A stretch of DNA of 37,074 nucleotides from the NCBI GenBank assembly GCA_019057795.1, contig JAHLWS010000035.1:1-37074 (forward strand), read 5' to 3'. This DNA comes from Promethearchaeota archaeon (GTDB lineage Archaea; Asgardarchaeota; Lokiarchaeia; Sigyniarchaeales; SOKP01). The translations under genes were made by a program, and so were the position numbers. The notes below the pieces were generated by a model. The model did no database searches and had not been told where the DNA came from. It saw only the letters and a list, made by a program, of their open reading frames with translations. Positions 15,457-36,638 of the stretch are shown in pieces (position 1 is the stretch's first letter; each line of letters begins with the position of its first letter).

Positions 15457-16257
15457 TTAATGAGTAAGTGTTGTTTCTTCTTTAATTGATAGGACTTTTT
15501 TAATCCAACCAGGAAGGATAAATCCAAGGTAAAAGAAAAAAGTCGCTAACGCTAAGATAATTCTCATCAATACTAATAAAAGGGGACTCATCTCAATTAT
15601 GGCATCAAATATTGCAGAGATTCCAAATAATAAAAAACCTATCAATAAAAACCTTCCTTTCCAGCGAATCTCAGGAGGTTCTTCTTTTTTCATGGATTTT
15701 GCAGCAAAATGAAACCCTGTTATGCAAGCCGTCAATATACTCAAACCTAAAAATATCAATACAAAACCCTTATAATCAATGTCCATAGGATTAGTTGGAT
15801 CATGTATAATTCCTAGTAATGAATCAACAGGTGCTCCTGGAGCTAATAGAAGGAAGTATAATAAATACAATTCAAAAAAAATCGATATTATTCCATATAG
15901 GATAAGTACTGGCTTCTTTATTTTTGGTTTTATAGTAGACAAATAAACGTTTAGCCAGGCTAGTATGGCAATAGGCACGCCTACAGTACCAATAAGAACA
16001 TATATTTGGTAATTTAGAAACTCTCCAGTAATAATCCAATACAAATATCCCAATCCACTTGGATACCAAGGAGATAATGTAAAAATAATACATAAAAAGA
16101 AGTTAAAGATTAAAAACTGCTTTGTTTTAAAAAATTTAATCAAAACAATAAAACCTAAAAGAAAACTTAATAATACGGCAATTAAGGCAGTTAAGCCTGA
16201 AATTTTTGCTAAATCACTTAGAACTTGAAATATCATTTTCTCGACCTTTGGATTCAA
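15457..16257 (-). CDS. Stand-alone 7-TM membrane protein (HisKA-7TM/receptor-like)
   Basis: Seven hydrophobic segments, basic loop KSMKKEEPPEIRWKGRF before TM6, no soluble output domain. Confidence 0.7.
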   Translation of the reverse strand: MNPKVEKMIFQVLSDLAKISGLTALIAVLLSFLLGFIVLIKFFKTKQFLIFNFFLCIIFTLSPWYPSGLGYLYWIITGEFLNYQIYVLIGTVGVPIAILAWLNVYLSTIKPKIKKPVLILYGIISIFFELYLLYFLLLAPGAPVDSLLGIIHDPTNPMDIDYKGFVLIFLGLSILTACITGFHFAAKSMKKEEPPEIRWKGRFLLIGFLLFGISAIFDAIIEMSPLLLVLMRIILALATFFFYLGFILPGWIKKVLSIKEETTLTH

Positions 16258-27049: not shown

Positions 27050-28009
27050 ATGATTGTATTAATCGTAATGATTTTTATTCTCATAGGAGGAGTTGTTATT
27101 ATAATCTTCTCTAGTAGTTTTGCTGTAAAAAATTCAGCTTTACTTGCAACAGCTTTAGGGATATCACCATTAATAATTGGAGTGACTTTAGTATCCATAG
27201 GAACAGATATTTCTGAAATTTTTAATTCAATTATTTCCTGTTCTTTAGGTCACGGAGATATTAATGTAGGAGATTCGGTTGGCTCAGATCTCACGCAACT
27301 CACTCTAGTTTTTGGACTTCTACCACTAATTTGTGGTGCATTTCATGTTAATAGAAAGGACATAATAATATTAGGTGCTTGCGAAGTTCTGTCTTTATTA
27401 TTGATCTTTACAATTGTTGAGAAAGGATACATCACTCGTTTGAACGCGCTATTTATGGTTATCAGCCTTGTAATTTATTTTTGGTTAATCTTTAACGCCA
27501 ATAAAGAGAGCATAATGCATAGAGTAGAATTGATAGAAACGCCGCAAACAACAAAGAGTAAAAAAATTCTACTTTTGTTTGCTGCAATTGGTTTTGGTGG
27601 CGTCACAATTGGCTCCTATGCCATCGTAAATTCTGTTATTTATATATCGCAAGCTCTAAGTATTCACGAATATATCATCAGTTTCTTCATCCTCTCAATA
27701 GGAACATCGCTACCAGAACTCGTCGTTGATGTACACGCCCTTCGTCATGGTCATCATTCCATTGCAATTGGGGATATTGTTGGCTCTTGTATTGTTGATT
27801 CTACTTTATCTATAGGAATTGGCCTATTCTTCTTCCCTCAAGCGGTTTCAGCAGAATTAGCGGTTCCTACGGTTTTATATACGCTCGTTGTTAGTTTAAT
27901 TGTATTTGTTGTAATAGCAGTTAGACAAAAAATGGACAAAAAATTTGGAGTATTTTTTATATTCCTTTATATAATGGCTTATGTATTTCTATTTGGATTA
28001 GGAATATAA
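27050..28009 (+). CDS. Ca2+/cation antiporter (CaCA, YrbG/NCX-like)
   Basis: Two alpha repeats: GTDISE...GDSVGSD and GTSLPE...GDIVGSC; about 10 TM. Confidence 0.9.
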   Translation: MIVLIVMIFILIGGVVIIIFSSSFAVKNSALLATALGISPLIIGVTLVSIGTDISEIFNSIISCSLGHGDINVGDSVGSDLTQLTLVFGLLPLICGAFHVNRKDIIILGACEVLSLLLIFTIVEKGYITRLNALFMVISLVIYFWLIFNANKESIMHRVELIETPQTTKSKKILLLFAAIGFGGVTIGSYAIVNSVIYISQALSIHEYIISFFILSIGTSLPELVVDVHALRHGHHSIAIGDIVGSCIVDSTLSIGIGLFFFPQAVSAELAVPTVLYTLVVSLIVFVVIAVRQKMDKKFGVFFIFLYIMAYVFLFGLGI

Positions 28010-28054: not shown

Positions 28055-29251
28055 TTAATCTCTTATAGAATAGTCAATATTCTGGCGCCAAATTGGGGAG
28101 TTATCTCCTCTAGCCTTCTTTTCATCGATGACACGGGTAACAGTATAAAAAGGAACTTTAACTACCTTCGATCCGTCGTATTTCTTTATTTTCTCGCGAA
28201 AATCGTCCAAAAATCTCTTCCTTTCCTCGCGGTCTTTCTTGTTTTTCAGATGGTCTTTCTCGTATTCCCAATCAGAGTACTTAAGTATTGTTTGCTTAAG
28301 TTCTTCCGTAATTTTAACTTTACTTAACATTAGGAAACATCCAAGGACCATAAACGCTAAACGCGATTTTTTCTCGTAAGCGTAAGCGACTAATTTATCG
28401 TACGCCCTTTCAATTAAAATTTTATCCATGCTATCTGGGATTCTTCGGGGATATTTCTTATTTTCTTCGGGAGTAAGGTGGTCAATCATAATATCTATAA
28501 AATCAGAATCTAAGTTTGAAGCCTCGTCGTTTCCCTTAATAGAATACGACCATGTTTCGATCTTCTCTCGCTTGTTTTCTAGAGTTTTTACGAAAGGCTT
28601 GCCCGACCTTATTCCCATCAGTTCTCTCCCCAAGTCGTGCTCGTAAACGCCTTCAAAATCAGAAGTCGGCACCTTGTCTAGCGAGAGCACAAGAGCCTCG
28701 ATAAATTCCTCTAACTCTATTTTTGAAAAATTGAACGGGCTAAAATTTATAACCGATTCAAATTCTGGGGGAAAAGTCCTTGCTTCCGCAAAAAGAAAAA
28801 CGCGATAATCAGGAGACCAACCCCCGATGGAAGTTCCCGATTGGCCGTAATAAAAGGTAGCAGGAAATGTTTGACCTTTAGGAGTCTTAACAAACATCCA
28901 CACGTGAAATAGTTGCTCGCAACCACCGAACTCCGTTCTTGGGATCAAGGTTTTCAAAGCCCCGCCAAAAAATAAATCCAACTTCGGACTGTAATTAAGC
29001 AGGTCTTTGGAACCTTTTATTGGACCCTGAATTTCTATAGACCTTTTATAAACGCCTCTAAAGGCGCCAACGGAACAGAGTTTACTGCTCCCATCCCCTA
29101 TGATAAAGGAATTTTTAGATTTATAATCGTAATCCCTAAAAACAAACCCATACCCGTTAAATCCTATAGCTCCCTCTTTAAAATCGTCTTTTCCATCAGC
29201 AGCTCCGGAAACCAACTTAAGTAAACTTTCAATCTCCAATTTTTTATCCAA
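28055..29251 (-). CDS. Hypothetical two-domain protein; C-terminal half DUF4259-like
   Basis: 398-aa ORF with TTG start; WSYSIKGNDEASNL resembles the DUF4259 W....f.nD.a.d start; EERKRFLDDFREKI. Confidence 0.6.
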   Translation of the reverse strand: MDKKLEIESLLKLVSGAADGKDDFKEGAIGFNGYGFVFRDYDYKSKNSFIIGDGSSKLCSVGAFRGVYKRSIEIQGPIKGSKDLLNYSPKLDLFFGGALKTLIPRTEFGGCEQLFHVWMFVKTPKGQTFPATFYYGQSGTSIGGWSPDYRVFLFAEARTFPPEFESVINFSPFNFSKIELEEFIEALVLSLDKVPTSDFEGVYEHDLGRELMGIRSGKPFVKTLENKREKIETWSYSIKGNDEASNLDSDFIDIMIDHLTPEENKKYPRRIPDSMDKILIERAYDKLVAYAYEKKSRLAFMVLGCFLMLSKVKITEELKQTILKYSDWEYEKDHLKNKKDREERKRFLDDFREKIKKYDGSKVVKVPFYTVTRVIDEKKARGDNSPIWRQNIDYSIRD

Positions 29252-29334
29252 AAACGTGCTAAAAATTATTAATTAACTTAATGCATTAAATGTACGAAAA
29301 TATATAAAAAAAAAAGTATTTAAACTTTCACTCT

Positions 29335-29850
29335 TTACCGTTGTCTCAAATAAAGTTTAATCCAATCTTCTTCACCATCTCCTTTAAGACCTTTTAAATA
29401 ATGCTCTGCGTATTCCTGTAGATACGCTGCTTCATAAAGTAAACTTTGCGAATGAAAAATATTGAACGCGTAGTCTTGATAGCGGTTATGTATTCCTTCA
29501 AAATTTCCATCAAATCCAAGAAATTCTTTGTATTCTTCCGAGGTTATTATTCTTACGTTTTCGAGGTGATTTGAACCGTCGTCCTCTTTAACAGCTCTCT
29601 GAAGCTTTTTATTAATGTTTGCAATATCTCTATCGTTTTTCTGCCCTAATAAAACGATTACTAATAACCGATCTTCTGATTGATAATGTTTCTCAAATTT
29701 TTCCGCTATGGATTGAAAGTCTGATGTGTAAGTATAATCAACTGTAATAAGTTCAATTGAACTTGGAATTGATATTATATTTTGAAGAGGTTCAATATTA
29801 TTGTTTGTAAAAGGTCGTTCAATTTTTTTTCTTTTAAATTCTTCTTTAAT
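29335..29850 (-). pseudogene. Start-less 171-codon frame, possible PD-(D/E)xK-like C-terminal domain (5'-truncated or frameshifted gene)
   Basis: Stop-free IKEEFKRKKIERPF...ITVDYTYTSDFQSIAEKFEKHYQSEDRLLVIVLLG...DWIKLYLRQR*; no ATG/GTG in frame; an upstream GTG (29873) in another frame meets it at an A8 run (29823-29830). Confidence 0.7.
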
Positions 29851-29942
29851 TCAATGCTATTTATTATTTTCACATTTTTTTTCTTTCCTTAGATATTTTT
29901 CTTTTCTTACTTTATTTTATTTAATTGCTTTTCTTGTTTTAT

Positions 29943-29979
29943 TTACCTAATATAAGGTGCATTACTTACCTGATATAAG
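29943..29979. repeat. Imperfect 14-bp direct repeat with palindromic character
   Basis: TTACCTAATATAAG (29943-29956) and TTACCTGATATAAG (29966-29979), 23-bp period. Confidence 0.6.
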
Positions 29980-30076
29980 TTTTTGGTTTGGTTTTCTTTT
30001 GGTTTTTTATAATCCTTAATCCTTCTAATTTTCTTATCGAGTTTATATTCGGTTTGGTTGTCCCTTGCGAATAGGG

Positions 30077-30424
30077 TTATTCAGGTAAATAAAACTTACA
30101 TATAGTACACTGTTTTGCTTTTAATCGCCTATCAGGTCCGAGAATAATATATTTGCTTTTCATATCCCCGCCGCATTTTGGGCAGTTTTTCACAAAGTTC
30201 TCTTTTATTGAATCTAAAACTTTCTGGATGCTTTTCTCTAGCTGAAGTAATTCATTTGCGTTTTCTATTATTTTTTTCGCAGAGATAATGCCAATTCCCT
30301 TAATCCATGCTAGCTCTTCGGTTGTAGAGTTTGAAATCTCTTCAATTGTTTTCACACCTGCTTTATTAAGGTTTACAGCAGCTATTGGTCCAATACCTCT
30401 AACCCGTTCGAGCTCATTAGACAT
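30077..30424 (-). CDS. Helix-hairpin-helix protein with C-terminal Zn ribbon
   Basis: VRGIGP and IKGIG HhH motifs, CPKCGG...CTIC; ATG 30424 preferred over the track start 30466. Confidence 0.85.
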   Translation of the reverse strand: MSNELERVRGIGPIAAVNLNKAGVKTIEEISNSTTEELAWIKGIGIISAKKIIENANELLQLEKSIQKVLDSIKENFVKNCPKCGGDMKSKYIILGPDRRLKAKQCTICKFYLPE

Positions 30425-30598
30425 AAAAAACACTTTTATATGAATTATTCCACTTGAGAATGACAAAGATTACTACTTGAATGAATTATAAAGAAACTTA
30501 ACTTACAATATTTTTGAATTTATCTATATTAATTAATAATTGCAATACTAAAAGATAAAATTTGAGATGATAAAAAAAAGAAAAGATTTTAGTAAAAG

Positions 30599-31315
30599 TT
30601 ATTTTTCAATTTGACGCCCGACGCCGTAATACATCAAATAAGCACCTAAAAGAGCTAATATCAAGCCTACTACTCCTATTATGGTTCTAAAGGAGTCAAT
30701 ATTTAAAGTATTAGAGATAAAAATTCCATACATAAAGATGATAATTGAGCATAATCCGAATATAAAGAATTTCCACTTTTTTTTTATTAGCTCATCTTCA
30801 AATTTCTTATAAATCTGAAATGATAGATAAAGTGCTGAAAATATTGCAATAGTTTCGATCGCTACAACATATAAGAAGAATGGAAAACTCCAAATAGGGC
30901 TCCAATTTTCGTTAAAAGTAACACCATAACCAGGATAAAATAGAAATCCTATCATTGAAAACATAGCAATACCGTACACAATAAGAATAATTAATTGCTT
31001 CCTTGTTGTAATTGCCTTTTCAGATTTTAAAAGAATTAAATTAAAAACAACGATAAATATTGAAGAATAGAAGATAAAAAAGTTAGTGAGAAAGTTTAGC
31101 ATTAGCACAACAGATACATCGGTAAGAGGAGCATAAATAAAATTTATAATAAATCCAATAGCGGGAGATAAATAAAATCCTGAAAAGATTACATTTAGTC
31201 GTTTCCTATCTCTTTTGAGAATTTTGAACGCCAAAAAAAGGAAAAAAATACACATAAATCCTTGGGCTACATATATCGTTATAAAACGAATTATTGACAT
31301 TTGATAAAGAGTCAT
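30599..31315 (-). CDS. Stand-alone 7-TM receptor-like membrane protein (paralogue B)
   Basis: 7 TM; KILKRD..LN in the first loop, WSPIWS loop before TM5, KKFEDELIKKKWKFF, YYGVG. Confidence 0.8.
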   Translation of the reverse strand: MTLYQMSIIRFITIYVAQGFMCIFFLFLAFKILKRDRKRLNVIFSGFYLSPAIGFIINFIYAPLTDVSVVLMLNFLTNFFIFYSSIFIVVFNLILLKSEKAITTRKQLIILIVYGIAMFSMIGFLFYPGYGVTFNENWSPIWSFPFFLYVVAIETIAIFSALYLSFQIYKKFEDELIKKKWKFFIFGLCSIIIFMYGIFISNTLNIDSFRTIIGVVGLILALLGAYLMYYGVGRQIEK

Positions 31316-31454
31316 TGTTAAATCACATTTGAATTTGTTTTATTGTTAGAAATTTAAAATTTTTTTAATTTTGATAGACATATAATTGTATTTTTCCTAT
31401 TTAATTGTAATTCAATTCGATATATATCGAGATGTAAAAATAATATTAAAATTA

Positions 31455-32162
31455 TTATAATTGCTTCGCTACTCCATAATAAACAAAATACAGAGAAATA
31501 AGCGCGGGTAACGATGTAAGAGACCATATTAACCTAAAAGTTGGGTCGGCTAATGTATTGGAGATTGTAGTACCATAAAATAAAAAGAAATATGCGAAAA
31601 TACCAACTAAAAAATACTTCCATTTCTTTTTTAATTCCTTGTACTCGAACTTAAGATATAGTTTTAAAGAAAAATAAGTTGTAGGAACAATAGCTATCGA
31701 GCTACAAATAATAAAACTAAAGGTTAAGAAAGGCCAACTCCACTCGGGTTTCCAATCCGTACTTGCATTAATAACAATACCGTCTGGAATAAACCATAGG
31801 CTAAATAAAAGAACGCTAAATGTAATTATCAATACTAATTGAATTTTGGGAGTTATAACATCTACCGATTTGTCAATTATTAATACAAAAATGAGTAAGA
31901 AGATTAAAGAAAGGCACAGCAGATAGTAAGTTAAAAAATGTAGTATATGAACAACGGACTCTACTAAAATGAACGCGTAAATCAAATTTATAATAACTCC
32001 AAAAGCCACAGATAAATAAGCTCCACTTAATATAAGATTAGGTCCCTTCGACTCTCTCTTTAAAATTCTATACGCTATAAACAGAAAAAATAAACCAGTT
32101 AACCCTTGTACGAGAAAAACTTGAATGAATCTTGCTATATCCATATATTGCGCTAATAACAT
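31455..32162 (-). CDS. Stand-alone 7-TM receptor-like membrane protein (paralogue A)
   Basis: 7 TM; RFIQVFLVQG, RILKRE..PN, WKPEWS, KFEYKELKKKWKYF, ISNTL and YYGVA shared with the neighbouring gene. Confidence 0.8.
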   Translation of the reverse strand: MLLAQYMDIARFIQVFLVQGLTGLFFLFIAYRILKRESKGPNLILSGAYLSVAFGVIINLIYAFILVESVVHILHFLTYYLLCLSLIFLLIFVLIIDKSVDVITPKIQLVLIITFSVLLFSLWFIPDGIVINASTDWKPEWSWPFLTFSFIICSSIAIVPTTYFSLKLYLKFEYKELKKKWKYFLVGIFAYFFLFYGTTISNTLADPTFRLIWSLTSLPALISLYFVYYGVAKQL

Positions 32163-32319
32163 CGAATATTATCCCATTTCCTTTAATTATATAATATACA
32201 AGATTAATTTTTTTGTCTGATATTTTATATTCGATTTTTTTCTATATAACTATTTATTTTTAAAAGTAAATGTATCTTGAAAAAGGAATAATAAAAAGTT
32301 TAACAGAATTAAGTTCTTT

Positions 32320-32508
32320 CTATTTCTCTCGCCACTCCTGACCACATCTACCACACCTATATTTCTTACCGTATACTCTAGGATAATCGTTTATAATATT
32401 TCCTCTGTCAGTTGACTCGTGAATCAAATTTTTATGTTCTTCATTACAAGATGGACATTTTCGTCTTCCTTCAGTTTTTTCAATTGTCATTAAATTATCT
32501 TCTCCCAT
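32320..32508 (-). CDS. Small Zn-ribbon protein (TFIIS/RpoM-like ending)
   Basis: RRKCPSC...YGKKYRCGRCGQEWRE. Confidence 0.8.
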   Translation of the reverse strand: MGEDNLMTIEKTEGRRKCPSCNEEHKNLIHESTDRGNIINDYPRVYGKKYRCGRCGQEWREK

Positions 32509-32693
32509 TAAATTTCAACTCTAAAGAATAAACATTTTTATTTTGGTGTTAAGTTTGTTAATCAATTTATAAATATTAAGTTAACTTGTTTTTATTATCT
32601 AAAATGTATCCTTAGGATATTTGTTTAGTTTAGTAGTTGATTTATAGGATAATAATATTAGATACCTATCTTACACATATATAGAATTTCGTT

Positions 32694-33293
32694 CTACTTA
32701 GAAAGAATTCTTCCGTAAGCCTTTGCTCGTTCAAATAGCTCTGGGTTTAAAAATTCTAATTTGAAATGGATATCGTTTAAAATTTTATCGAAGACATCTT
32801 TAACATCTCTTTGTAGATTTTGAATTTTAAAACAATATAAAAGTTCGAGTTCTCTTGTTTTTTGGATTAAACTAAATTCATTTATTCTCCTTTCATTTGG
32901 AGTTTTGTTTTTTAAGATTAAAAAAGGGTCAATTCCTGCTAAAACAGATATGCCATCGAACATAAAGCGTTGAGAAAATTTAGTATAATTTTCAATATTA
33001 ATGTTATTAATCGATTTATCATTGTAAATATTTGCTGCGATTATGATTGCGTCAAAACTATTAAAGGGAATTTTCTTGCTAATTAAATCCTCAAAACTTT
33101 CTGCAAGAATGGCTTTTAATTTTATAGGAATACCATTAAATAGAAGTAAAAACTTCCAAATTAAGTCTTCCGAAGCATATTTTAAAGCAATTTGCTTTAA
33201 ATAATCTAAAAAAATCCTTTTTTTAGAATCTTCCGTACCAACAAGACCCAAATTGATGGTATAACTAAATTCTTTCAAAACTTTACTTGTCAA
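32694..33293 (-). CDS. Rab/Ras-like small GTPase fold with degenerate G motifs (pseudo-GTPase)
   Basis: Colinear with Rab: EFSYTINLGLVG, FNGIPIKLKAI, DAIIIAANIYNDKSINNI, VLAGID, RRINEFSLIQKTRELEL, DVKDVFDKILNDI; TTG start. Confidence 0.7.
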   Translation of the reverse strand: MTSKVLKEFSYTINLGLVGTEDSKKRIFLDYLKQIALKYASEDLIWKFLLLFNGIPIKLKAILAESFEDLISKKIPFNSFDAIIIAANIYNDKSINNINIENYTKFSQRFMFDGISVLAGIDPFLILKNKTPNERRINEFSLIQKTRELELLYCFKIQNLQRDVKDVFDKILNDIHFKLEFLNPELFERAKAYGRILSK

Positions 33294-33373: not shown

Positions 33374-34300
33374 ATGTTAATAATTTACGCGCTATTAATC
33401 GTAATGATTATTATCTGGAGTTTCTCATTTGTTCTAGTGGATATTGCCCTGGAATTTGTTCCACCTATGTCTATTGCGTTAACTAGGTTTCTAATAGTAT
33501 CAATGGTATTTATTATTGTTGATCTATATTTTTTTATTAATCGAAAAAGACAGGGTGATAAATACAACAAGAAAAAAGAAAATCTTCGATACACAAGAAA
33601 GGAATGGATATATTTAATTATCGCAAGTTTTTGTGGTATTTTGCTTTTCTTTATTGCTCAATATTCTGCAATAGAATTAATTGGACCCTCCTTACCCGCA
33701 TTATTCGTGTGCCTTTTATCCCCAGTAGTAATAACAATTTTAGCTTTAATCTTTTTTAAAGAAAAGTTGACTAAGGTTAAAATCCTGGGTTTTGCTATTG
33801 CAACTATAGGCGGTTTTTTGTTAGTTACGGGAGGAGATTTACGAACACTTACTCCAACAACGCCTAACTTCTTAGGTTATATATACGCTCTTATGACGCC
33901 TATGATATGGGCGATTTATTCAATAATAACAAAAAGAATTATAAGAAATAAATCAAATTTTAAAACCTTAAAATACATTGCTTATTTTGGGACAATACAG
34001 TTGTTCATTATCGTAATATTAAATAATGAATTGCTCATTTTTACCCAGAATTTTTTTAATATTTATGTTTTTCTAATAGGAATATATTTAGGTATTGGTT
34101 GTTATATTATCGGGTATTTTATCTGGCAGAAATCACAAAAGGAGCTTAAATCTTCGAAAGGAGCCTCTTTTTTGTATGTAGAACCGTTTTTAACTCTATT
34201 ATTTTCAATCCTCCTAAACAGAACTGAAACTATACTACTATGGAATATAGTCGGTGGAGTTATTGTATTGGTTGCTGTGTTAATAATAAATTACAAATAG
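33374..34300 (+). CDS. DMT/EamA family transporter
   Basis: IIWSFSF, LTRF, FFKEKLT, FLYVEP; 10 TM in two repeats. Confidence 0.93.
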   Translation: MLIIYALLIVMIIIWSFSFVLVDIALEFVPPMSIALTRFLIVSMVFIIVDLYFFINRKRQGDKYNKKKENLRYTRKEWIYLIIASFCGILLFFIAQYSAIELIGPSLPALFVCLLSPVVITILALIFFKEKLTKVKILGFAIATIGGFLLVTGGDLRTLTPTTPNFLGYIYALMTPMIWAIYSIITKRIIRNKSNFKTLKYIAYFGTIQLFIIVILNNELLIFTQNFFNIYVFLIGIYLGIGCYIIGYFIWQKSQKELKSSKGASFLYVEPFLTLLFSILLNRTETILLWNIVGGVIVLVAVLIINYK

Positions 34301-35240: not shown

Positions 35241-35393
35241 ATGTCAAAATCAAAAAATATAGACAAGACTAGCAAAGGATTAATATTTGGTTCCGATAAT
35301 CCGAATGTTATTGAAGTCAAGGATTTGAGAAAGACTTATGCGGGCAAGAAAGCCATAGAGGAAGTGAAATCAAATAAGGAGGAATACTTATGA
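35241..35393 (+). pseudogene. N-terminal stub of an ABC ATPase (50 aa), ending before Walker A
   Basis: MSKSKN...NVIEVKDLRKTYAGKKAIEEV...* ; its TGA overlaps the next ATG (ATGA). Confidence 0.6.
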
Positions 35394-36321
35394 AAGCGAT
35401 TGTATACACGAAATACGGACCACCGGATGTACTTCAGCTCAAAGAAGTAGAAAACCCTACTCCTAAGGACAACGAAATACTGGTAAAAGTATATGCGTCA
35501 ACAGTTACATCGGGGGTGGTGATAATTCGAAGTGGTATGAAAGATTTTTCTCTCTTGATGCGGTTCTTCGGTCGATTAATGTTTGGTCTCAGAAAACCAA
35601 AAAAAACGATACTAGGGTATGAGGTATCCGGGGAAGTGGAATCAGTAGGCAAGGATGTGAAATTATTTAAGAAAGGAGACCAGGTTTTTGGAAGTACCAC
35701 TGGATTGAAGTTTGGTGCTTATGCCGAGTACGTGTGCCTCCCGGAAGAATGGAGGGCAGGGGTGGTGGCAAAAAAACCAGCCAATATGACTTATGAAGAA
35801 GCCGCTGCCGTCCTATTGGGGGAATTACTGCATTGCATTTTCTTAGAAAAGGAAATATCCAGAGCGGACAAAAAGTTCTTATCTATGGAGCTTCTGGAAG
35901 TGTAGGTACTTTTGCGGTACAGCTTGCCAAGCACTTTGGGGCAGAGGTTACCGGGGTGTGCAGTACCACAAATTTAGAATTGGTGAAATCTCTGGGAGCA
36001 GATAAGGTAATTGATTACACTAAAGAGGATTTTACAGAAATAGGTGAGCTTTATGATTTCGTCTTTGATGCCGTTGGAAAAAGCTCGTCTTCAAATTGCA
36101 AGAAGGCTTTAACTCCAAACGGGACATTTATGACAGTTAGTAGGGGGTTGGCAAGGGAGAGGACTGAGAAACTAGTTTTTCTCAAAGAGCTTATTGAGGC
36201 GGGAAAGATCAAATCGGTCATAGATAGACACTATCCGTTGGAACAAATTGCCGAGGCTCACAGGTATGTTGAAACAGGACACAAAAAGGGAAATGTAGTA
36301 ATAACTCTAGACCATAATTAG
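35390..36321 (+). pseudogene. MDR-family NAD(P)-dependent alcohol dehydrogenase/quinone oxidoreductase split by a 1-nt deletion
   Basis: [15 protein letters not shown]...EEAAAV, then a frame switch at GTCCTATTGGGGGA (35810-35823, expected GTC CCT ATT GGG GGA = VPIGG) into ...[10 protein letters not shown]...GHKKGNVV; strong AAGGAGG RBS. Confidence 0.9.
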
Positions 36322-36340
36322 TGTTTTAATAAGTAGGCTA

Positions 36341-36560
36341 TTATATATTTTTTGAAACCATTTTTTCCAACTCTTTAACCAATATATCATCAATTGGTTT
36401 TATTGAACTTTTGTCAATTAATTTGGAAGCTTGTTCTCTTGCCCTTTTTCTAGTTGACTTTGAGCCAGATTTTTTCCATGCGTCTCGAGATAATCGATCT
36501 ATTATCGAACTTGTTAAAAACAATTCTTTTCTAAATAGCTTTATAGTCGATGGATGCGAT
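36341..36560 (-). pseudogene. mttB: C-terminal remnant of a trimethylamine methyltransferase (MttB) family gene
   Basis: HPSTIKLFRKELF...IIDRLSRDAWKKSGSKSTRKRAREQASKLI...PIDDILVKELEKMV matches the MttB C-terminus; the remaining ~400 aa are absent. Confidence 0.65.
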
Positions 36561-36638
36561 CTATTTAGTATAATCATCCTTATAAAAAAACAATACAAAA
36601 ACTCATTTAAAATAAAAACCATTCGTAGAGAGAAATAG

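What the first reader, a model, noticed from the sequence alone, without database searches (positions are those of the whole stretch)
30077..33293. Co-oriented cluster: Rab-like pseudo-GTPase, Zn ribbon, two stand-alone 7-TM receptor-like genes and an HhH/Zn-ribbon protein (candidate receptor-G-protein-like module)
Seen: five consecutive minus-strand genes encode a small-GTPase-fold protein, a 62-aa Zn ribbon, two tandem 7-TM paralogues with no fused output domain, and a nucleic-acid-binding HhH-Zn-ribbon protein. Known: prokaryotic 7-TM sensor domains (HisKA_7TM type) normally signal through a fused kinase or cyclase, whereas GPCRs signal in trans through a basic TM5-TM6 loop. Inference: these receptors need a separate transducer, and the adjacent GTPase-fold protein and Zn-ribbon proteins are candidates, giving a possible archaeal 7-TM/G-protein-like pathway. 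Caveat: intergenic gaps of ~140-185 bp suggest separate promoters, so the linkage may be incidental.
Basis: partly seen in the sequence, partly recalled or inferred. Interest (0 to 1): 0.75.

Follow-up and report, generated by a model that had tools for sequence, protein, structure and literature searches.

The report
Stand-alone GPCR-fold receptors beside dead GTPase
This Asgard (Loki) archaeon has two membrane proteins with the fold of human G-protein-coupled receptors next to a GTPase-shaped protein that has lost its GTP-binding motifs, but the five genes look like three separately expressed units inherited together in an old gene block, not a shown receptor-G-protein pathway.

Summary
All five genes are real. 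The two 7-TM paralogues are predicted to have the GPCR fold (Z about 14-17 to solved GPCR-fold chains), are closer still to bacterial HisKA_7TM sensor domains (TM 0.69-0.76), and belong to a large, almost wholly stand-alone Lokiarchaeia family. The GTPase-like protein has a Ras/Rab fold, but 0 of 68 orthologues keep G1, G3 or G5: a pseudo-GTPase, not a switch or a G-alpha. The 62-aa zinc ribbon is a free copy of the Loki gelsolin (2DGel) tail domain; in one genus it is fused to the pseudo-GTPase, so these two are a likely pair. The gene order is conserved across the family, but so are unrelated flanks. An opposite-strand oxidoreductase gene splits the run in nine genera, and a conserved T-tract isolates the HhH gene. 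Other 7-TM paralogues sit by ThiF/GNAT enzymes or a winged-helix-like gene instead. Verdict: interesting parts, unproven module (about 20% that the pseudo-GTPase/Zn pair is the transducer; about 2% for a true G-protein cycle). First readers of this scan noted the same cluster in other genomes.

The parts
32694..33293 (-). Ras/Rab-fold pseudo-GTPase (199 aa) with an extended, conserved C-terminal helix; single copy, found only in this Lokiarchaeia family
   Evidence: fold; 0/68 G1, G3, G5; distribution; dN/dS 0.10-0.38
32320..32508 (-). Stand-alone Loki2DGel-type zinc-ribbon domain (62 aa); fused to the pseudo-GTPase in genus g18
   Evidence: PMC9433394; fusion in L142, L143 and G061 in two contig pieces
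32280..32297 (-). T-rich tract after the Zn gene, candidate archaeal terminator
   Evidence: sequence; T-tract in 7/25 genus loci and 17/28 loci of the family set; function inferred
31455..32162 (-). 7-TM paralogue 1 (235 aa), stand-alone; absent or broken at this locus in several lineages
30599..31315 (-). 7-TM paralogue 2 (238 aa), GPCR/HisKA_7TM fold, ECL2 hairpin, about 6-residue tail, no output domain
30572..30584 (-). Conserved T-tract after 7-TM paralogue 2, candidate terminator separating the HhH gene
   Evidence: 29/29 genus loci versus 1/29 on the other strand; 26/29 versus 0/29 in the family set
30077..30424 (-). HhH (RadA-N-like) plus zinc-ribbon protein, 115 aa; probably its own transcription unit; the HhH part is replaced by another repeat in genus g18
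33374..34300 (+). EamA transporter, divergent flank used as synteny control
   Evidence: adjacent to the pseudo-GTPase in 29/29 loci
27050..28009 (+). Na/Ca exchanger, convergent flank used as synteny control
   Evidence: adjacent to the HhH gene in 20/22 loci

Best explanation
Three functionally separate units co-inherited in a slowly rearranging chromosomal block of one Lokiarchaeia family. (1) Pseudo-GTPase plus zinc ribbon: a nucleotide-independent scaffold that is delivered, through the same Zn domain that ends Loki gelsolin, to whatever structure that domain binds, most plausibly the actin-related machinery (pairing shown by fusion in one genus; target inferred). (2) Two stand-alone 7-TM proteins: small-molecule sensors of the HisKA_7TM/GPCR fold that lost the fused enzyme, bind ligand in a pocket lined by the conserved polar residues R10, N58, Y61, N202 and R210, and pass a conformational change through a conserved basic cytoplasmic face to a soluble partner encoded elsewhere (fold predicted with high confidence; sensing, pocket and partner inferred). 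(3) An HhH/Zn nucleic-acid-binding protein behind its own terminator boundary.
For: Controls are as conserved as the cluster: EamA-pseudoGTPase 29/29 and HhH-exchanger 20/22, against Zn-7TM 14/20; a second Zn-domain gene stays 29-51 kb away on the same contig in nine relatives; shared upstream genes run across most genera. An opposite-strand CCG/Fe-S gene lies between the pseudo-GTPase/Zn genes and the 7-TM genes in genera g19-g24, g26, g27, g29 and some g1 and g28. T-tracts: after the last 7-TM 29/29 and 26/29, after Zn 7/25 and 17/28, after the pseudo-GTPase only 1/31 and 4/39. Fusion of pseudo-GTPase and Zn. 7-TM homologues in other families have no pseudo-GTPase found (0/24 genomes) and other neighbours; there the free Zn gene mostly lies beside or within 5 kb of the gelsolin gene. 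Other 7-TM clades sit by ThiF/GNAT genes or a winged-helix-like gene, and one has a fused cytoplasmic domain. 83 Ras-family matches in this genome make a GTPase-fold neighbour likely by chance, about 20-26% for 3-4 loci.
Against: In the divergent genus g18 the upstream flank is wholly different and EamA and the exchanger are gone, yet pseudoGTPase-Zn, 7-TM and the Zn-ribbon gene remain consecutive. A 7-TM gene stays in the block in nearly every genus with enough contig (11 kb away in G088). In one genome of another family a free Zn gene is divergent from a 7-TM gene (L091). Separate promoters do not exclude one pathway. No RNA or binding data were obtained; terminators are inferred from sequence.
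Confidence: 0.62

Rival explanations
1. A real family-specific module: the 7-TM proteins signal through the pseudo-GTPase/Zn pair acting as a nucleotide-independent adaptor (closer in role to an arrestin than to G-alpha), possibly coupling an outside cue to gelsolin/actin via the shared Zn domain.
For: Order conserved in most of 13 genera; retained in g18 despite loss of other flanks; conserved basic cytoplasmic face of the 7-TM and conserved C-terminal helix of the pseudo-GTPase; Zn domain shared with 2DGel.
Against: Flanks equally conserved; insertions split the two halves in nine genera; Zn gene missing from the locus in g22, g26 and a g1 subclade, and paralogue 1 in others; 7-TM family exists where no pseudo-GTPase was found; no specific rate co-variation (only 9 genomes, weak test).
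Confidence: 0.2
2. Canonical GPCR-like pathway: the 7-TM acts as exchange factor on the adjacent protein, which cycles between GDP and GTP.
For: GPCR fold next to a Ras-like fold.
Against: 0/68 intact P-loop, DxxG or SAK motifs against 54/57 (P-loop) and 51/57 (DxxG) in control GTPases; no G-alpha family match above cut-off in the genome; the C-terminus is not free in the g18 fusion; no DRY, CWxP or conserved NPxxY and no room for helix 8.
Confidence: 0.02
3. The 7-TM proteins are not signalling receptors but GPCR-fold membrane proteins with another job (trafficking or cargo chaperone, lipid-handling protein), as some eukaryotic GPCR-fold proteins are.
For: [quoted passage not shown]
Against: Nearest predicted structures with a named family are all sensor domains of kinases, cyclases and phosphohydrolases; lineage-specific expansion and tandem arrays (up to 13 matches per genome) are typical of receptor families; one clade sits among ThiF/GNAT enzymes.
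Confidence: 0.16

Closest known systems
HisKA_7TM (PF16927) sensor domains of bacterial/archaeal kinases, GGDEF and HD proteins
   Same: Same predicted 7-TM fold over the whole length, TM 0.69-0.76 by query; feature search names the same family as nearest.
   Different: No Pfam match in any of 50 members; no fused enzyme; ends about 6 residues after TM7.
Eukaryotic GPCRs (classes A, B2, C, F) and other GPCR-fold proteins
   Same: All 50 best VIA-align rows are GPCR-fold chains, Z 14.0-16.9, rmsd 3.4-4.6 A over 208-231 residues; N-out topology by positive-inside rule; stand-alone.
   Different: 5-14% identity; no DRY, CWxP, conserved NPxxY or ECL2 cysteine; no G-alpha match in the genome. Prokaryotic GPCR-fold proteins are already described (PMC10760455, PMC13581589), and Asgard-eukaryote GPCR/7TM structural clusters are listed in bioRxiv 10.64898/2026.10.28.762692 (whether they include this family could not be checked).
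Loki2DGel / MKD1-2DGel C-terminal Zn domain (PMC9433394; PDB 7WHG)
   Same: 68% identical to this genome's gelsolin tail; the paper already notes free 64-residue copies and C-terminal copies on unrelated proteins.
   Different: Its linkage and fusion to a pseudo-GTPase are not in that paper's sections read.
Ras-fold pseudo-GTPases (AGAP1 GLD, p190RhoGAP pG1, AAGAB) and Asgard Rab-like GTPases
   Same: Fold (Z 15.2 to AGAP1 GLD, tied with Rab proteins); loss of G motifs.
   Different: Stand-alone, archaeal, family-restricted, extra C-terminal helix; no paper on Asgard pseudoGTPases found.

Membership tests
G-protein-coupled receptor | 7-TM bundle with GPCR topology | tested here: met
   (predicted model)
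G-protein-coupled receptor | Class A motifs (DRY, CWxP, NPxxY, ECL2 cysteine) | tested here: not met
   2, 0, 10 and 4 of 133 sequences
G-protein-coupled receptor | Heterotrimeric G-alpha encoded in the genome | tested here: not met
   PF00503 no match over cut-off in G000
G-protein-coupled receptor | Ligand-driven nucleotide exchange on a G protein | not testable with these tools
   needs biochemistry
HisKA_7TM (PF16927) | Profile match over the curated cut-off | tested here: not met
HisKA_7TM (PF16927) | Same fold | tested here: met
   TM 0.69-0.76 to predicted 7TM sensor domains
HisKA_7TM (PF16927) | Fused kinase, cyclase or phosphohydrolase | tested here: not met
   best 150 relatives all 329 aa or shorter; none at 502-2000 aa (weak test)
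Microbial rhodopsin | Retinal-binding Lys in TM7 | tested here: not met
   0 of 133
Active Ras/Rab small GTPase | Ras-like fold | tested here: met
Active Ras/Rab small GTPase | G1, G3, G4, G5 motifs | tested here: not met
   0, 0, 4 and 0 of 68
Pseudo-GTPase | Intact ORF under purifying selection with eroded G motifs | tested here: met
Pseudo-GTPase | No nucleotide binding or hydrolysis | not testable with these tools
   inferred from motifs only
Loki2DGel-type Zn domain | Two CxxC pairs, Tyr-tipped loop, sequence match to 2DGel tail | tested here: met
Five-gene operon | Uninterrupted co-orientation without internal terminators across relatives | tested here: not met
Five-gene operon | Co-transcription in RNA data | not tested

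The most novel reading that the evidence does not exclude
Lokiarchaeia have freed a GPCR-fold sensor from its fused kinase and, in this family, couple it in trans through a dead Ras-fold adaptor carrying the gelsolin-type Zn domain to the actin cytoskeleton: a prokaryotic parallel or relic of the step from fused 7-TM sensors to stand-alone receptors with G-domain partners.
Probability: 0.15. Interest if true: 0.9.

Novelty: new variant of a known kind. Interest (0 to 1): 0.5.

Why it matters
How eukaryotic GPCRs arose, and what 7-TM receptors signalled through before heterotrimeric G proteins, is open. Prokaryotic GPCR-fold domains are normally fused to their output enzyme; this family is stand-alone, expanded (516 clusters at 50% identity) and present in complete Lokiarchaeia genomes (G044, G050, G055), so the question 'what binds the cytoplasmic face' can be asked directly. 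The pseudo-GTPase-Zn fusion also gives a handle on the unexplained Zn tail of Loki gelsolin. The specific five-gene G-protein pathway, however, is not supported.

Tried and rejected
Complex prediction of 7-TM paralogue 2 with the pseudo-GTPase gave no answer (score 0.00); it is neither evidence for nor against binding. Pfam/NCBIfam gave nothing for the 7-TM or GTPase-like proteins; PDB sequence search gave only weak hits. Microbial rhodopsins and G-alpha chains were not among the 50 best fold matches, which does not exclude them. Sigma-70 promoter/terminator scan was at chance level and does not suit archaea; TATA-like counts were only modestly above shuffles in two gaps and not in the others. 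Rate co-variation on 9 genomes was uninformative, highest for EamA-pseudoGTPase. The Zn-domain tree (58 columns) was mostly unresolved; it cannot say whether the g18 fusion is ancestral or arose by read-through of the intergenic gap. My early view that the pseudo-GTPase was genus-specific was wrong: it is family-wide. A 393-aa 'fusion' in L174 runs into ribosomal S3-like sequence in one assembly and was discarded as a probable misjoin. Literature searches found no paper on this family; supplements of two relevant preprints were not held.

Full report
Observation. Look-alike clusters place the genome in Promethearchaeota/Lokiarchaeia. All five genes show dN/dS below 1 in every orthologue pair tested.

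The 7-TM proteins. They are 42% identical and have two or three more paralogues in the genome. Pfam does not recognise them. An AlphaFold2 model from 50 homologues has pLDDT 92.7, seven helices, a hairpin between TM4 and TM5 and a three-residue TM5-TM6 loop. Against 48,161 solved chains the 50 best matches all have the GPCR fold, Z 14.0-16.9; Foldseek agrees, TM 0.4-0.7 with E-values above 0.001. Among predicted structures the nearest named relatives are 7-TM sensor domains of kinases, GGDEF and HD proteins, TM 0.69-0.76. A profile search finds 516 clusters; the best 150 are all 329 aa or shorter, with a median of 6 residues after the TM7 Tyr-x-Gly. Charge bias gives N-out topology. Conserved polar residues near the outer ends of helices (R10, N58, Y61, N202, R210) and basic ones on the inner face (R35, R39, K178-K180) fit a ligand pocket and a partner surface; this is inference from sequence position, since I could not inspect coordinates. 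GPCR class A motifs and the retinal Lys are absent. That prokaryotes have GPCR-fold sensors is known (PMC10760455; PMC13581589), and a recent preprint lists Asgard-eukaryote GPCR and 7TM clusters (10.64898/2026.10.28.762692). I found no paper on this stand-alone family.

The GTPase-like protein. Model pLDDT 89; Rab/Rho hits at E about 1e-8, Z 15; 95% profile match to the genome's own Rab-like proteins. None of 68 orthologues has an intact P-loop, DxxG or SAK motif, against 54/57 (P-loop) and 51/57 (DxxG) in controls. It diverges 2.5 times faster than the 7-TMs across the genus. What is conserved is K7, the last strand and an added C-terminal helix. It is single-copy in 117 of 129 family genomes, all 13 genera, and was not found in 24 genomes of other families, although 18 of those carry 7-TM homologues. 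The genome has no G-alpha match over cut-off and 83 Ras-family matches.

The zinc ribbon. It is 68% identical to the tail of this genome's two-domain gelsolin and matches Loki2DGel 7WHG. PMC9433394 described this domain, its Tyr-tipped loop and free copies, and supposed it binds a cellular structure. New here: in genus g18 the pseudo-GTPase carries the domain as a C-terminal fusion (326 aa in G063 and G064, 84% identical; G061 in two pieces). No T-tract follows the pseudo-GTPase gene (1/31, 4/39). These two genes are therefore the best-supported pair, though the fusion may have come from read-through of the gap and the Zn gene is missing from the locus in several lineages. In other families the free Zn gene usually lies beside or near the gelsolin gene.

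The HhH/Zn protein. HHH_5 plus a zinc ribbon, the slowest-evolving gene of the five. A long T-tract precedes it in 29/29 and 26/29 loci, almost never on the other strand, so it is probably transcribed alone. In g18 the HhH part is replaced by two copies of another short repeat while the ribbon stays.

Is the linkage meaningful? The order holds across the family, but so does the surrounding block: divergent EamA 29/29, convergent exchanger 20/22, against Zn-7TM 14/20, and a related Zn-domain gene remains 29-51 kb away in nine relatives. An opposite-strand CCG/Fe-S oxidoreductase gene lies between the pseudo-GTPase/Zn genes and the 7-TMs in nine of the twelve other genera; by parsimony the compact five-gene run is secondary (no species tree was built). 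The one observation pointing the other way is g18, where the upstream flank is replaced yet pseudoGTPase-Zn, 7-TM and the ribbon gene stay together; a downstream sirtuin gene also stays in G064, so a single breakpoint upstream explains it.

What the rest of the family says about mechanism. On the 7-TM tree other clades have other conserved neighbours. One sits among a ThiF enzyme of the PRK08223/PRK14851 type and GNAT-like genes in shuffled orders; a second lies convergent to a homologue of one of those genes; a third always follows a winged-helix-like gene (fold judged by eye); one cluster has a fused 75-residue cytoplasmic domain also found on other Loki proteins. This fits ligand sensors that pair with various outputs, and suggests an acylated small molecule as ligand for at least one clade. 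Earlier notes of this scan describe ThiF/GNAT plus 7-TM kinase cassettes in bacteria; I saw the Loki case before reading them and did not test theirs.

Verdict. Shown: the genes, their predicted folds, motif loss, the fusion, the conserved block and its interruptions. Inferred: sensing, terminators, cytoskeletal link. Three co-inherited units 0.62; adaptor module 0.20; non-receptor role 0.16; true G-protein cycle 0.02. New variant of a known kind, interest 0.5.

Noticed in passing
G000 C8:16031-20846; L108, L109, L111-L114, L119, L120: A paralogous 7-TM clade sits among a ThiF enzyme and two GNAT-like genes whose order is shuffled between genomes, often beside a PAS histidine kinase: candidate signal-synthase plus receptor locus.
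   Followed up: partly
G000 C71:1230-2598; L101-L104, L116-L118: Another 7-TM clade always follows a 180-215 aa winged-helix-like gene, with a 350-aa Rab fusion and a nitroreductase upstream in most; arrays of up to four 7-TMs.
   Followed up: partly
P0095/P0243, L206:10001-10990: 7-TM member with a fused 75-aa cytoplasmic domain that also ends four or five other proteins of G000; no Pfam or PDB match.
   Followed up: partly
window 15457-16257: Member of a second stand-alone multi-pass membrane family, weakly similar to the 7-TMs (hhalign 50%); homologues lie just upstream of EamA in genus g28.
   Followed up: partly
window 28055-30076: A 398-aa ORF without family match plus 825 bp without a long ORF, between the HhH gene and the exchanger; not seen at this place in relatives, probably a recent insertion.
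   Followed up: partly
window 35390-36622: Only the last 72 residues of the trimethylamine methyltransferase gene that flanks this block in relatives remain (36344-36559; full copy on C59), next to an oxidoreductase-like gene split across two overlapping frames: a rearrangement scar.
   Followed up: partly
L182-L188 (G061, G063, G064): In genus g18 a free Zn-domain gene directly follows a 319-333 aa Zn-tailed (gelsolin-sized) gene on the same strand; free and gelsolin-tail copies group by family rather than by architecture in a weak tree.
   Followed up: partly
L083, L086, L092, L093, L095, L106: A longin-like gene lies within two genes of a 7-TM in three families; such genes are common in these genomes, so this may be chance.
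   Followed up: no
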